A DNA stretch of 64,000 bases from Octopus vulgaris (taxonomy: Eukaryota): positions 55,924,001 to 55,988,000 of the forward strand of contig OX597821.1 of NCBI GenBank assembly GCA_951406725.2, read 5' to 3'. Position numbers: made by a program. Positions 37,183-43,100 of the stretch are shown here, one piece after another (position 1 is the first letter of the stretch; every line of letters begins with the position of its first letter).

Positions 37183-40100
37183 ATAGATAGATAGATATGA
37201 ACAGAGAGAAATTCAACAGATGAGATCCAGAGATTCTAAATTTAGAAAACTAGTGCTTAAATGATTTTAAATATCACCCGAAACCTTCACCAAAGACAGT
37301 AGGTAACACCATGCCTTCTCCCCTTTATTTTTCTGTCTTTTGTACTCTGTGTAGGTTTGCTATGTTAATATATAATAAATATCTATATATTTATGCCTGA
37401 CTATTCATCGTCTAAAAATTTTCAGTCTTTGCTTTCTTTCTATTTACTTGAATAGATATTTTGTATATCAGATCCACGCAGCCTTAGTTGTTTATTCGCA
37501 TCATTGTCTCTATACATACATCTAGATCGATAGATATATACATGCACAACACAAGTGTGTCAAATGAAAACGTTTGAGATAAAACATTTGCAACTAAAGG
37601 TATTTTAACTGCAATAGCTAAACGGGGTCAACTGTATAATCGTCATATCCGTAGAAATAGTCAACAAATATTCCTTAAATATCATTCAGCCTAATTTATA
37701 TATGTATATAGTATATGTTAAGAAGAAAAGGGGATTTTAAAAGACATCGATAAAGCACTGAGTTTTAAAACAATTTAAATAACTATATCAAACAATCAGA
37801 TTCCAATAAATGCAAGTAGAATCCAAGGTAATTCCTCGTGTATAAGTAAGTAGACACAAATATTTTGAAGAATTGTGAAACATTCAAAGTTTTAGACAAC
37901 AAAAATAAGGGAAGAGAAAATCACATCTTTAGTCGTAAAATGCCTCTTTCTGTTATGTCAACATATTTAGATATCGAAAATATCACTGAAATTACGACGT
38001 TTTCGATGCGATCCAAAATAAAATTCAAAGATAACTAAGGAACTATATATATATATATTTATATATATTAGATAAACTAGACTAAAGATAAAAAGACGTG
38101 ACTGTCTTAGTCGGAATGCATCTTGGTTGTAGATCTTAATCAATCAAGGTTGACTGATGGTTAAACAACAACTAATTTGGTCAATAAATTTAAACTAGTA
38201 ATTAAAATACTACATAATAGCAATGAGTTGTACAGAAGTTATATGTGTAAATTGCTCAAACATTTCCATATAAAGAAAACTGCTTAGTAGAAAGCCAACA
38301 ACCTCCGCTGGTTGTTTAACTATGAAATCTGTTGATCGACTGCGTCTTAAGTGACGACAATAGTTCGAGGGGAGATATTTGCTTAGTAAATATTAATTAT
38401 AAACCTATAAATAACTTGCCTTGGTGGGAGGTTGATCTCTGTCTTTTTTTCGTTCGTCTATACACTTCTTCTCCACCATTTTCGATTGTTTATGTTCACA
38501 CTTAGAGTCCTGACTCGATCTACGTATTCTGGCCGTCATTTGTAAATCATACTTTAGGAGATACGGGCAGGAACACGCAGCACAAATATTTTTCATTTCA
38601 AAATTCACAAGCGAAATATTAAAGAAAAATTTTTAGATTAAAAATCATTAGAATATATATTGTATATAACAATGATATCTATATGAAATATTTTTAAAAC
38701 TTGTTTGTGAAATTAAAATATACTTCAACCCGAACGACCGGAAGTTTTGTCTGGCTAAGGTCACCGCTGTGGGTATGTCGTTTTGTTTTCCTTTCGTTGA
38801 ATTATTCTGTAAATTTTGAAATGTATTTAACTTAAATAGGTGTTCTTTTAATGAGACAGTGAAATCTCATTGTGTTATATGTTATTTGCTAGTAATATAT
38901 TTTTAACTTCATTGTTAACGTCACTAAATATTAGATAAGCTACATTGTTGTCGGTATACTAAATATAGTGTGGTGCTCTCCTCCACTAACCTTCGATTTT
39001 AATAATAATATAATTTCTAATAGAGGCGCAAGGCCAGGAATTTTATGAGAACTTACTACTCGACAATTACTTTGCTTTGTCGACTCCAGGAGGCTGGATG
39101 ACAGATGATCTTGCTGTGATTTTAAGTTAGATCGTAATGAGTGTAAATAAATAGTGCAAAGCATTTTGTTTGACACTAATTCTACTGGTAAAAATAATTT
39201 CTTTAATTTCCTTATTTTGTTACAAGCTAACTTTTGGAAATAACAACCAACATAAATATTTGGCGATCTTTCGTTTTAACTAGAAATCGCCACCAAATAT
39301 TTTATTTAATGTAAACATGTACTCTTGATAGGATATATACAGACTAGAAAAGGTCAGAAAGTGAAGGTGAATGATACATCGCAGCTTAGGAGCTGTATAG
39401 CTCAATAGTTAAGAAGTCCGCTTTGCAACAAATTCCTTCTGACTGATGAGCATGTAAACATGGAGATTAACCATTTAGCATTCAAACCGGCCATATCCAG
39501 CCAAAATATTCTACCTGTTTTATGCCAGTTCCAGCATCTCACACAAACCCTACAAAATCATTCAAAAAATAAACAATCATTTCATTGAAATTTAAAAGCA
39601 ATGAAATAATGGTTGATTAATTCAAAATAATGATGATGGGGTATTGCCTTTCCTCTCTGAGTTATAGAAAAAAGAAAAAAAATTGCTGCACAAAAAGCAT
39701 ATCATCCAAATGCAGCATAGATATGCATACATATCAAATATATATGTATTAAATATGCATGTTGAATGAGTATAAATGTTGATAACCCACAACTTGACTT
39801 GAGCAACAACGGTGAATAATGATAATATATTCCTTGTTAACATTTCAACTGGTTGTGCTGTGCTTTCAAAAACCTGTGGAATACAAAAAAGCATCCTTTA
39901 CTTAAAAACAGCTTAGGGTTGGTGACAGGTAGAGCATTCAGCTGTAAAATCCTGCCCTAAATACATCTCCACCCAACATTGCTAGAGTGAAGAAACAGGC
40001 TTTAAACTAATGAAGGTATATGTTTATGTCACTTTCTGAATATTTACATTTGGTGTCTTCATGAAACTGTTTGAGCAAAGGGTAAAAAATTAAGAATGCT

Positions 40101-43100
40101 GTTGCATTTACATTACCCTTTGATAAATCATCCTATAGTGTGTCAGAGAATAGAGATGTGTGTATGGTTGAATAATGGTATGCTTACATTTAGTGATTCT
40201 GAAAAGGAGGCATGGAAGAGCTACTATGAATGAATGAATGAATGAGAGAAAAGGAGTCTCTCTCTCATGTGAACCCTACACGGGAGCAGCTATCCCACTG
40301 CTCAGCAGTATGATGGATAAGCCAATTAAAGATATGTAAACAGAGAAAGTTCCTGATCTATCAGGAGTCACTGATGAGATGCTTGAACTATCTGGTAGAG
40401 TAGGATATAGTCTGGTCACCCACATAATTAATCGGGTTATTCAGGAAGGCATAACCCACTGTGACTGGTGTAGCAACATTATAGTCAGCTGCTTCGAGGG
40501 TAAAGGAGATGCTTTAGAAGTAATTATAGAGGCATGAAATTGCTGAACCTAGTGATGAAAGTTATGGAGAGAGTTAGGGCCCGGTTAATTAGGCAAATGC
40601 AGTTTGACTTTATGCCTGGAAGAAGCACTACTATTGTTATTTTCATAGTCAGTTAACTGCATGAGTAGGATTAAGCTAAGAATAAGCCATTATACTTAGC
40701 CTATTGATCTGGAGAAAGCCTTTAACAGACTACCTTACTCAGTGATATGGTAGTCTCTGAGGAAACTAGGGGTAGCTGAAGGGCTTGTGAAAGCAGTGCA
40801 GGCCATGTACAGGGGTACTGTTAATAAGGTAAAAGTTAACCATGAGCACAGTGATAAATTTAGTATACAAGTAGGTGATTACCAAGGCTTAGCCCTCATC
40901 CTCCTCCTGGCCATTGCAGTGGAATATAAGTCTGGCTCTCCATGGGAACTACTATATGCTGATGATCTTGCTGATGATAGGATCTTGCTGATGATAGCTG
41001 AATCTGTAATAGAACTAGAAAAGAAATTCCAGGTATGGAAGCAAAACCTAGAATTGAAGGGCTTTAAAGTTAACCTAGGAAAGGCCTAGGTCCTAGTAAG
41101 CCAGAAAATGAATCCTGCTTAATATGTAAGAAGGGTATAGGCAAGAATTTCATTTAGGGATACACAAGAGGTGCAGTAGGGAGGTTAACAAAGAAAGTGT
41201 TTGTAGTGAAAGATGCACAGGAGCCATGAAGAGTACAGATACACAAGAAATTGATTTTCTCAAATGCTCTGGAGGCTCTCTAGAGATATTGGATAATTTA
41301 TGCTACTTAGATAACCAAATTAGTTGTACAGGAGGATGTATCAAAAATGTAATTGCTAGAATAAGAATAGGTTGGAGGAAGTTTAGAGAGCTTTTACCAC
41401 TGTTGGTAACCAAAAGTCTATCTCCCCGAATGAAAGTAAGATTGTATGATGCATGTGTATGAACTGCAATGCTACATGATAGTGAGATGTGAGCACTGAA
41501 TGCAGAAGACATTCAAAGACTAGAGAGAAATGAAGTGAGTATGCTCTGAGGATGTGTAATGTCAGTGTATTTGCGCAACAAAGCACTGTTGTATTGAGAG
41601 AAAAGTCAAGCCTAAGAGGAAATAGATGTAGTGTGCATGAGAGAAAACTGCACTGGTTTGGTCATGTGATGTATTTGGGAGAGGACAGTTGCATAAAGAA
41701 GTACCAATCACTGAAAGTGGATGGAACTTGTGAAAGAGGGGAGATTCAGTAAGACATGGGAAGAAGTATTGAAGGCTGATTTCAGGGTGTTGGACCTTGT
41801 AAAGGAGTTGACAAAGGACCAAAATATCTGATGCCTTGCTATACTCAAAAAGATGTTTACCACAGCAAAACTGATATTTTAAAACCACTTTGGGAATGCT
41901 TGTCTATGAGGAGGCCTCACACCACCCCCACTTCCACCTGCTCTATTGCATCAACCATTTCCTTTTCTAACACCCATCACTTCTCTTCCACCTGAGAGCT
42001 GAATAGGCACATGTTACATTCTCTGGCTTCTTTAGTTGTCTTTCTTCCCCTCACCCCAAACCACTTCCATTTCTATTATCTTCTTCCACCTACTGTCTTG
42101 CCAGGAAGTGACCCGCACACTTGGTTTCATGACCTTCTTCTGCAACACATATGGAATGAGACAAACAGGATCCAGTTATGAAACTGTATCAGACTGCTGC
42201 TGACATGGTTATAGTTTTGAGTGGTGCCTTCTCTAGCATGTCTATCTTGTGTAGCCCTATTCATCCACTGGTTCAAGCGCTGAGATCTGTTGTAATCATC
42301 ATCTACTTGTTTCACTGTTGGGTTCTTTGGTGGTTGGTCACACCTAGTGTGGGTCTGCGTCCTTGACCTTGCCCCCCCAAGGGTAGCTCTACCAGGAGTT
42401 TAGAACTCCCAACAGCATCACTCTCAAGAGTCATTGGTCCATGCAAACCCCTCCACAATAACAAGAAGTGACTATCAAGGGGGTTAATGCAAATAATTTA
42501 TAAGAAATATGTTCTGGTTGAAGAAGAAAAATATGAATTTTTGTCATCTCTAAATTAAAATTTTATTTGTTTGTTTAGATCACTGAAAGACCAAAAAAAC
42601 AGCAATATGTGGTACGAAGTTATTCCTAGTTTTGGAATTGTTGTTGGTCTTCTGGCCATACCCAATTTAGCAAATTGTGTTCTTAACTGGACATTCAGAA
42701 GCAGAAAGGTAATGCACAGAGATTAATTTCATTGTTTTTGTTTTTTCATTATCACTTTATTACGTTGTATTCAACATCCGCAGTTATTGAGTTCTATACT
42801 AAATTTGTGTCTCATCACAGCTACCACTTATATTTTGTCACATATAGAAGGAGACACAGCATAAATGCTGAACAAATACACATTACCATGTGATGAGGCT
42901 GGTCCATCCATAACAAGCCAACAGTTGGGTAAAAATAGACATTTTTGGCAGTATGAATATATTCAATAATTCAAAGCATCACCCTTTGTAAAATTCTATA
43001 TTCTCAGCAATTTCCTGGAAAGCCCTGTCTTTCATGTACCTAAAATTGAATGAATGCTATATGATGTATCAAATCTTGAAAAGATATAATTATGTTTGAA

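What the first reader, a model, noticed from the sequence alone, without database searches (positions are those of the whole stretch)
38420..42708. UPF3 and NDUFA1 head-to-head: possible ancient microsynteny
Seen: the UPF3 ATG (38479, minus) lies ~300 bp from a plus-strand donor (38773) that plausibly splices to the NDUFA1 acceptor (42578), with an ETS motif in between. Known: human UPF3B and NDUFA1 are divergently oriented near-neighbours at Xq24, with intronless RNF113A between them. Inference: the pair may be an ancestral bilaterian bidirectional unit linking an NMD factor with a complex I subunit, retained despite extensive genome rearrangement.
Basis: partly seen in the sequence, partly recalled or inferred. 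Interest (0 to 1): 0.7.

Follow-up and report, generated by a model that had tools for sequence, protein, structure and literature searches.

The report
Octopus UPF3–NDUFA1 head-to-head gene pair
Two housekeeping genes, UPF3 and NDUFA1, lie head-to-head in an octopus genome and probably share one promoter; this is an ordinary arrangement, and its claimed deep ancestry is still untested.

Summary
The window is Octopus DNA; its exons are identical to O. vulgaris proteins. UPF3 starts at ATG 38479 on the minus strand. Its 60-nt first coding exon ends in a GC donor and is spliced across 13.2 kb to 25260. Three cephalopod gene models share this N-terminus. NDUFA1 (MWFE subunit) starts at ATG 42607 on the plus strand, with further exons near 48.0 and 52.7 kb. 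No other gene lies between the two.

Both 5' ends sit at the only CpG-undepleted island inside the genic span (37.5-39.0 kb). The 3.8 kb up to the NDUFA1 ATG exon is as CpG-poor as gene bodies. The window's only CCGGAAGT lies in the island. Together these favour a short non-coding NDUFA1 first exon ending at 38772, and so a shared bidirectional promoter. This is inferred, not shown: the donor alone is no better than chance (top 5% of GT sites).

The ancient-microsynteny claim could not be tested, because no eukaryotic genome collection was available. Human gene order is UPF3B, RNF113A, NDUFA1, but that cassette is inverted between human and mouse. In Lymnaea the two genes lie on different scaffolds; in Tachypleus they share a chromosome. 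Verdict: a real, ordinary head-to-head pair, with ancestry plausible but unproven.

The parts
38420..38479 (-). UPF3 coding exon 1 (ATG at 38479; 20 codons; ends in the GC donor AAG|GCAAGT)
   Evidence: Read. tblastn of P0002 residues 1-20 maps here. The same N-terminus is present in O. vulgaris and Argonauta models; the Acanthosepion model starts 6 residues in.
25261..38419 (-). UPF3 intron 1, 13.2 kb, GC-AG, full of transposon remnants
   Evidence: Bounded by exon 1 and exon 2. RVT_1 hit at 31262-32014 on the minus strand.
25154..25260 (-). UPF3 exon 2, start of the Smg4_UPF3 domain (VVIRRLPP...)
   Evidence: Pfam PF03467 E 1.3e-9 on ORF 25090-25395. Acceptor and donor read. tblastn.
10920..23128 (-). 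Further UPF3 exons, approximate: 23128-23022, ~21968-21870, ~20379-20270, 19904-19821, ~19020-18877, 15158-14820, 14251-13757, 10975-10920
   Evidence: tblastn of P0002. Pfam PF03467 on ORFs 22993-23181, 21789-21995 and 20215-20457. Junction contexts. Residues 539-723 of P0002 were not found in the window.
37500..39000 (.). CpG-undepleted island over both 5' ends (CpG o/e 0.96-1.30 in 500-bp windows; window median 0.28)
38480..38772 (.). Candidate bidirectional promoter interval between the UPF3 ATG and the plus-strand donor (293 bp)
   Evidence: Read. Highest CpG o/e of the locus, 1.53 at 38501-38800. No TSS data.
38738..38745 (+). ETS-type motif CCGGAAGT, the only copy in the window
   Evidence: 1 match against 0.44 expected.
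38690..38772 (+). Putative non-coding NDUFA1 exon 1. The 5' end is unknown; 38690 is a guess placed downstream of TATATAA at 38663-38669. It ends TGG|GTATGT.
   Evidence: Inferred. Donor score 1.66, within the range of 8 confirmed donors of the locus (-2.7 to 4.6). No ATG between 38684 and 38772.
38773..42578 (+). Putative NDUFA1 intron 1 (3.8 kb), CpG-depleted, holding an old LINE fragment at 40237-41774
   Evidence: CpG o/e 0.05-0.39 in 1-kb bins from 39001 to 43000. blastn 65% to the LINE at 1078-2697. 0 Pfam families in 53 ORFs.
42579..42708 (+). NDUFA1 exon with the start codon (ATG 42607; 34 codons; MWYE... N-terminus)
   Evidence: Pfam MWFE. tblastn of P0009. Acceptor read.
48033..48122 (+). 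NDUFA1 second coding exon (30 codons)
   Evidence: tblastn of P0009. Junction context.
52661..52717 (+). NDUFA1 last coding exon (18 codons plus stop)
   Evidence: tblastn of P0009. Junction context.

Best explanation
In this octopus genome, UPF3 (an NMD factor, minus strand) and NDUFA1 (the MWFE subunit of complex I, plus strand) are adjacent and divergently transcribed, with no gene between them. Both most likely start from one unmethylated, CpG-rich promoter island at about 38.5-38.8 kb. UPF3 would start within roughly 60 nt upstream of its ATG. NDUFA1 would start 150-270 bp away on the other strand with a short non-coding exon that carries or abuts an ETS/GABP-type site. That exon would be spliced from 38772 to 42579, across a 3.8-kb intron holding a dead LINE, to the exon with the ATG.

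Shown: the identity of both genes, their exon maps, their orientation and adjacency, the CpG landscape, and the uniqueness of the motif. Inferred: the NDUFA1 transcription start, the 38772^42579 junction, and promoter sharing.

Tight linkage of the same two genes at human Xq24 makes retention from a common ancestor plausible. That is an argument from improbability of coincidence, not a demonstrated chain of intermediates.

The confidence of 0.6 is for the whole statement. By part: adjacency and gene identity about 0.97, shared promoter with a distal NDUFA1 exon about 0.65, retained ancestral linkage about 0.55.
For: Gene identity and exon 1.
- P0002 (UPF3B-like, O. vulgaris) aligns to the window at about 99-100% within exons, and its residues 1-20 map to 38479-38420.
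- P0002 scores 185 bits on Pfam Smg4_UPF3.
- P0009 (NDUFA1, O. vulgaris) maps to three plus-strand exons. It scores 32.8 bits against the 27-bit MWFE cut-off and matches complex I NDUFA1 chains 8esw, 8b9z and 6g72.
- Both proteins come from a contig of 118,905,486 bases.

Nothing between the genes. 0 Pfam families at E <= 0.01 in all 53 ORFs of >= 35 aa on both strands within 38480-42620.

Promoter island.
- The highest 1-kb CpG o/e bin of the window is 38001-39000 (1.14).
- The four bins from 39001 to 43000 are 0.39, 0.11, 0.05 and 0.16, like the UPF3 and NDUFA1 gene bodies.
- The flank at 59-62 kb is about 1.0.
- In O. bimaculoides, methylation marks the bodies of constitutively expressed genes and is absent from transposons and most promoters (PMC9476566, passages). 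CpG loss across the LINE-bearing 39.3-42.6 kb therefore fits a transcribed intron better than an intergenic spacer.

Motifs and splice sites.
- The only CCGGAAGT of the window lies in the 293-bp interval.
- An AG preceded by a T-rich tract lies 28 nt upstream of the NDUFA1 ATG.
- The donor is the best of 46 GT sites within 38480-39300.

Human order. UPF3B, RNF113A, NDUFA1 are listed consecutively (PMC11846235, passage).
Against: - No transcript, CAGE or cross-species alignment supports the 38772^42579 junction.
- The donor score is ordinary: rank 13 of 232 in the interval, top 5.1% of the window.
- A TATA-like TAAATTAAAA at 42551-42560 lies about 28 nt upstream of 42579, so a proximal start is possible.
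- About 5,500 octopus genes are methylated across the promoter as well. CpG depletion upstream of 42579 therefore does not exclude a proximal start.
- The ETS site could serve UPF3 alone.
- On ancestry: RNF113A intervenes in human. The cassette holding NDUFA1 is inverted between human and mouse. Lymnaea stagnalis has UPF3 and NDUFA1 on contigs of different length, 581,101 and 763,845.
- The microsynteny tables of the cephalopod study hold neither family. That method may not report two-gene pairs; this point is recalled.
Confidence: 0.6

Rival explanations
1. Two separate promoters. NDUFA1 starts just upstream of or at about 42.58 kb with a 5' UTR of roughly 27 nt. The donor at 38773 and the AG at 42578 are chance matches. 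The genes are divergent neighbours 4.1 kb apart (ATG to ATG) but do not share a bidirectional promoter.
For: The donor is unexceptional: top 5.1% of GT sites, about one such site per 350 bases of a strand. A TATA-like run lies at 42551-42560. Some octopus genes have methylated promoters.
Against: - CpG o/e of 0.09-0.18 in the 300-bp windows between 42101 and 42600, and no CCGGAAG-type site there.
- Four ATGs (42441, 42487, 42509, 42533) would burden any leader longer than about 75 nt.
- The one CpG island and the one ETS site of the locus lie 3.8 kb away, beside a usable donor.
Confidence: 0.3
2. Coincidence or convergence. The octopus adjacency arose during the large coleoid genome reshuffling, and the human proximity arose independently. 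The pair is not ancestral.
For: - Coleoid genomes are heavily rearranged (PMC9023564, abstract in the search listing).
- The human block is itself unstable, with an inversion against mouse.
- Lymnaea has the two genes on different scaffolds.
- The pair appears in no searched paper.
Against: By my own estimate, not a tool result, an adjacent pair in one genome lying within two genes of each other in another has a chance of order 1e-3 or less under random order. Divergent housekeeping pairs are the commonest class of conserved ancestral pairs (PMC3514665, passages). Tachypleus has both genes on the same 275,858,341-base chromosome, which is weak support.
Confidence: 0.4
3. The plus-strand exon-like piece at 38.7 kb belongs to a promoter-upstream or long non-coding transcript of the UPF3 promoter, not to NDUFA1.
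For: Divergent promoters commonly emit unstable antisense transcripts (general knowledge). No ORF with a family match lies there.
Against: The next plus-strand gene is NDUFA1, with a fitting acceptor 28 nt before its ATG. The CpG-depleted tract is continuous from 39.3 kb into NDUFA1.
Confidence: 0.1

Closest known systems
Human Xq24 block UPF3B - RNF113A - NDUFA1 - AKAP14 - NKAP
   Same: The same two orthologous genes are close neighbours (gene order from PMC11846235, passage). By recall, UPF3B and NDUFA1 point away from each other.
   Different: In human, RNF113A lies between them and, by recall, is the gene that abuts the NDUFA1 promoter. The octopus window has no RNF113A-like ORF between the two genes. 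The NKAP-AKAP14-NDUFA1-RNF113A cassette is inverted between human and mouse (PMC4584094, passages), so the orientation match with octopus may be secondary.
Bidirectional promoters of housekeeping gene pairs, e.g. HSPD1-HSPE1 (Adachi and Lieber 2002, and Hansen 2003, as cited in PMC3514665)
   Same: Divergent orientation, a CpG-rich interval shared by both 5' ends, an ETS/GABP-type motif, and one partner that is a mitochondrial protein gene.
   Different: Transcription starts are not mapped here. The two products have no known functional tie, unlike HSP60 and HSP10.
Conserved ancestral microsyntenic pairs (CAMPs) of Irimia et al. 2012 (PMC3514665)
   Same: A candidate 5'-5' pair present in a mollusc and a mammal. 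Most CAMPs are 5'-5', and these are enriched for intergenic distances under 1 kb (passages).
   Different: Membership needs adjacency in several distant lineages, which was not shown here. The paper's main text names neither gene, and its supplementary list could not be opened.

Membership tests
UPF3 / Smg4 (Pfam PF03467) | Smg4_UPF3 (RRM-like) domain above the curated cut-off | tested here: met
   Window exon ORFs score 38.8, 40.0 and 43.8 bits (cut-off 24), plus a weak 15.0-bit hit. The O. vulgaris protein P0002, which maps onto these exons, scores 185.1 bits over profile positions 3-171 of 172.
UPF3 / Smg4 (Pfam PF03467) | C-terminal exon-junction-complex binding motif | not tested
   Residues 539-723 of P0002 were not found in the window. 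The motif was not examined.
NDUFA1 / MWFE subunit of complex I (Pfam PF15879) | MWFE domain above the curated cut-off and an N-terminal MW[FY]E membrane helix | tested here: met
   P0009 scores 32.8 bits against a 27-bit cut-off over profile positions 1-55 of 55. The window exon alone scores 22.6 bits, covering half the profile. The N-terminus reads MWYE. PDB NDUFA1 chains 8esw, 8b9z and 6g72 match at E 4e-5 to 7e-3.
Bidirectional promoter pair | Divergent (5'-5') orientation with no gene between | tested here: met
   UPF3 ATG at 38479 on the minus strand and NDUFA1 ATG at 42607 on the plus strand. 0 families in 53 intervening ORFs.
Bidirectional promoter pair | Transcription start sites less than 1 kb apart | not testable with these tools
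   Needs CAGE or long-read RNA data. Only indirect support: the CpG island, the ETS motif, and donor and acceptor sites.
Bidirectional promoter pair | CpG-rich, unmethylated interval spanning both 5' ends | tested here: met
   CpG o/e is 1.28-1.30 at 38251-39000 against a window median of 0.28. This is a proxy from sequence, not a methylome.
Conserved ancestral microsyntenic pair (bilaterian) | Adjacency of the orthologues in several distant lineages | tested here: inconclusive
   Octopus: adjacent. Human: one gene between. Mouse: cassette inverted. Lymnaea: different contigs. Tachypleus: same 276-Mb chromosome. Only 2 of the 17 named clusters among the 30 NDUFA1 look-ups could be compared.
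Conserved ancestral microsyntenic pair (bilaterian) | Conserved relative orientation | tested here: inconclusive
   The human-mouse inversion of the NDUFA1 cassette shows orientation is not fixed in mammals. The polarity of that change is unknown to me.

The most novel reading that the evidence does not exclude
UPF3 and NDUFA1 formed a head-to-head pair driven by one ETS-dependent bidirectional promoter in the bilaterian ancestor. Octopus keeps the original state. In the vertebrate or mammalian line, an intronless RNF113A copy landed inside the shared promoter and took over the UPF3B side of it, pushing UPF3B some kilobases away.
Probability: 0.2. Interest if true: 0.5.

Novelty: new member of a known kind. 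Interest (0 to 1): 0.3.

Why it matters
If the pair is ancestral, it adds one more example to the several hundred deeply conserved, mostly divergent gene pairs. It would also offer a neat case of a retrogene captured by an old bidirectional promoter. It would not by itself link nonsense-mediated decay to complex I function. For octopus annotation it has a small practical value: it argues that NDUFA1 has a non-coding first exon 3.8 kb upstream, and that UPF3 has a 13-kb GC-AG first intron.

Tried and rejected
- A third gene between the two, such as RNF113A: rejected. 0 of 53 ORFs matched any Pfam family, and no long intronless ORF is present.
- Orthologues of human neighbours (NKAP, AKAP14, RPL39) downstream of NDUFA1: only retrotransposon domains were found among the 95 ORFs scanned at 52.7-64 kb. 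I dropped 6 low-complexity ORFs of the 154 listed before that scan.
- Not scanned at all: the 126 minus-strand ORFs at 1-13,750, and plus-strand ORFs before 38,480 apart from 349-2454.
- Synteny by matching contig lengths of UPF3 and NDUFA1 orthologues. The NDUFA1 search gave 43 hits, and I looked up 30. Of those, 17 clusters carried species names. Only Lymnaea and Tachypleus could be compared with the 120 listed rows of 870 UPF3 hits. Cherax was uninformative because its UPF3 row had only transcript-sized contigs. This gives too few species to decide.
- Literature. No paper in the library holds 'microsynteny' with NDUFA1, or RNF113A, NDUFA1 and 'bidirectional' together. The only paper with UPF3, NDUFA1 and 'synteny' is the homeobox annotation paper.
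- The supplements of PMC9023564 hold no PF15879, PF03467, MWFE, Smg-4 or UPF3. The single 'NDUFA1' hit there was NDUFA12.
- Splice-site scoring as proof of the junction: rejected as non-discriminating.
Exons were handled one at a time, and stored database proteins were used for mapping.
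Full report
**What the window is.** The window has no N, is 37% G+C, and is full of transposon remnants and microsatellites. Its exons are identical or nearly so to proteins named from Octopus vulgaris. I take it for O. vulgaris or a very close relative. Nothing in it looked human.

**UPF3.** I scanned all 247 minus-strand stop-to-stop ORFs of at least 30 aa overlapping 14,000-38,600 against Pfam.
- Four ORFs hit Smg4_UPF3 (PF03467) in profile order: 25090-25395, 22993-23181, 21789-21995 and, weakly, 20215-20457.
- The domain starts at an acceptor at 25261/25260, with the peptide VVIRRLPP in phase 0.
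This is a GC donor, also in phase 0.

A search with the stored ORF P0001 (residues 41-85, longer proteins allowed) returned 7 proteins among 14 candidates. The best was P0002, 'regulator of nonsense transcripts 3B-like isoform X1 [Octopus vulgaris]'.
- P0002 starts with exactly the 20 residues of the 38479 exon, followed by VVIRRLPP.
- The Argonauta hians model has the same start. The Acanthosepion pharaonis model begins six residues in.
- tblastn of P0002 on the window gives ten exons from 38479 down to 10920.
- Residues 539-723 were not found, so the gene probably runs off the left edge.

The start codon, exon 1 and a 13.2-kb GC-AG first intron are therefore supported by three cephalopod gene models. 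Exons were treated one by one, and the stored database proteins served for mapping.

**NDUFA1.** I scanned 140 of the 198 plus-strand ORFs from 42,559 onward (those up to 58,150).
- Only 42559-42723 hit MWFE (PF15879), at 20.7 bits.
- The exon proper (42607-42708) scores 22.6 bits. That is below the 27-bit cut-off, because it covers half the profile.
- A search with that ORF found one protein, P0009. It has 82 aa and is from O. vulgaris; UniRef names it NDUFA1, and it comes from a contig of the same length as P0002.
- P0009 passes the cut-off at 32.8 bits.
- P0009 matches NDUFA1 chains of solved complex I structures.
- It maps to 42607-42708, 48033-48122 and 52661-52717.

**Between the genes.**
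- The two ATGs are 4.1 kb apart.
- All 53 ORFs of at least 35 aa on either strand within 38480-42620 gave no Pfam family at E <= 0.01.
- The interval 40237-41774 is a 65%-identical relic of the LINE whose 702-aa ORF lies at 349-2454.
- There is no RNF113A-like gene here.

**Where does NDUFA1 start?** Several lines bear on this.
- Splice sites.
- Donor score. I used a recalled textbook donor matrix. The donor is the best of 46 GT sites in 38480-39300, but only 13th of 232 up to 42570, and within the top 5.1% of 3654 plus-strand GT sites. Eight confirmed donors of the two genes score from -2.7 to 4.6, and this one scores 1.66. The donor is usable but proves nothing.
- CpG depletion is more telling. 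The window median CpG o/e in 500-bp windows is 0.28. Both gene bodies are depleted. The highest 1-kb bin of the window is 38001-39000 (1.14), with a peak of 1.53 at 38501-38800.
- From 39001 to 43000 the four 1-kb bins are 0.39, 0.11, 0.05 and 0.16, like the gene bodies. Beyond the genes, at 59-62 kb, o/e is about 1.0.
- Methylation background. Bisulfite work on O. bimaculoides found methylation in the bodies of constitutively expressed genes. It was absent from transposons, and one large gene class is unmethylated at the start site (PMC9476566, passages). A LINE-bearing stretch that has lost nearly all its CpGs is therefore better explained as a transcribed intron than as an intergenic spacer.
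- ETS motif. The only CCGGAAGT in the window, counting both strands, lies at 38738-38745, against 0.44 expected per window.
- Upstream ATGs. A leader made of roughly 38.70-38.772 kb plus 42579-42606 has no upstream ATG. A long unspliced leader would have four.

Three points count against a distal start:
- There is no transcript evidence.
- A TATA-like run lies at 42551-42560.
- One octopus gene class is methylated through the promoter.

I put the distal start and shared promoter at about 0.65.

**UPF3 start site.** In-frame ATGs at 38539 and 38596 extend the open frame upstream of the annotated start. The gene models begin at 38479. This suggests, by inference only, that UPF3 transcripts start between 38480 and about 38538. 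If so, the two starts lie roughly 150-270 bp apart.

The papers give the following:
- A CNV table lists RPL39, UPF3B, RNF113A, NDUFA1, AKAP14, NKAP in this order (PMC11846235, passage).
[quoted passage not shown] The orientation match between human and octopus may thus be secondary.
- Irimia et al. 2012 show that deeply conserved pairs are mostly 5'-5' and enriched for distances under 1 kb.
- The supplements of the cephalopod microsynteny study hold neither Pfam family.
- No searched paper links the two genes in synteny.

As a stand-in, I compared the contig lengths reported for orthologues.
- The UPF3 search listed 120 of 870 hits.
- The NDUFA1 search gave 43 hits, of which I looked up 30.
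- Of those 30, 17 clusters had species names, and two species could be compared.
- In Lymnaea stagnalis the contig lengths are 581,101 and 763,845, so the genes lie on different scaffolds. The UPF3 record is marked partial, so adjacency across a scaffold end is not excluded.
- In Tachypleus tridentatus both are on a contig of 275,858,341 bases, so they share a chromosome, which says little.

By my own rough estimate, an adjacent pair in one animal lying within two genes of each other in another is unlikely by chance. It is less so if both genes sat on one ancestral linkage group. I put retained tight linkage at about 0.55, and an ancestral shared promoter at about 0.2.

**Verdict.**
- The pair is a real head-to-head pair of housekeeping genes, probably with a shared promoter.
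- This is a known kind of arrangement.
- The claim of bilaterian antiquity is open. It is weakened by the human-mouse inversion and by RNF113A being the gene next to NDUFA1 in human.

Noticed in passing
window 25261-38419 (minus): UPF3 intron 1 is a GC-AG intron (donor AAG|GCAAGT) of 13.2 kb, packed with transposon remnants: an RVT_1 hit at 31262-32014 and mariner-like ORFs near 33.5-34.5 kb on the plus strand.
   Followed up: partly
window 38537-38539 and 38594-38596 (minus): Two in-frame ATGs lie upstream of the annotated UPF3 start, in a frame open up to 38632. Either the transcript starts downstream of them or a longer N-terminus exists.
   Followed up: no
window 24130-24198 (minus): A degenerate partial copy of UPF3 exon 3 sits inside intron 2. 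It is 62% identical over 24 residues (tblastn E 6e-4) and then decays into microsatellite-like sequence.
   Followed up: no
window 13757-14251 (minus): UPF3 exon 9 encodes a run of nine-residue repeats of the type EK-x-DKFERH. The Argonauta model has more and different copies, so the tract varies among cephalopods.
   Followed up: no
window 349-2454 (plus) and copies at 40237-41774, 20830-21465, 36521-36748, 17636-17778: A LINE with a 702-aa open frame (RVT_1 at 109.7 bits, plus a PHD-like finger) and several old fragments scattered through both genes.
   Followed up: partly
window 62971-64000 (minus): An LTR-type retroelement piece (RT_RNaseH at 58.5 bits, RVT_1 at 50.2 bits) runs off the right edge. 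It is CpG-rich, unlike the transposon relics inside the genes.
   Followed up: no
window 52718-58000: CpG depletion continues about 5 kb beyond the NDUFA1 stop codon before o/e returns to about 1 near 58-59 kb. This could be a long 3' UTR, read-through transcription or an unannotated transcript.
   Followed up: no
proteins P0123 and P0144: Two proteins in the representative library, of 2,322 and 2,491 aa, carry 7 and 10 MWFE-like stretches. They may be tandem arrays or mis-predictions. Their source is unknown and they were not looked up.
   Followed up: no
window 1-10919: The last 185 residues of the O. vulgaris UPF3B-like isoform X1 (P0002) have no match in the window, so the gene's 3' exons probably lie beyond the left edge.
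   Followed up: no
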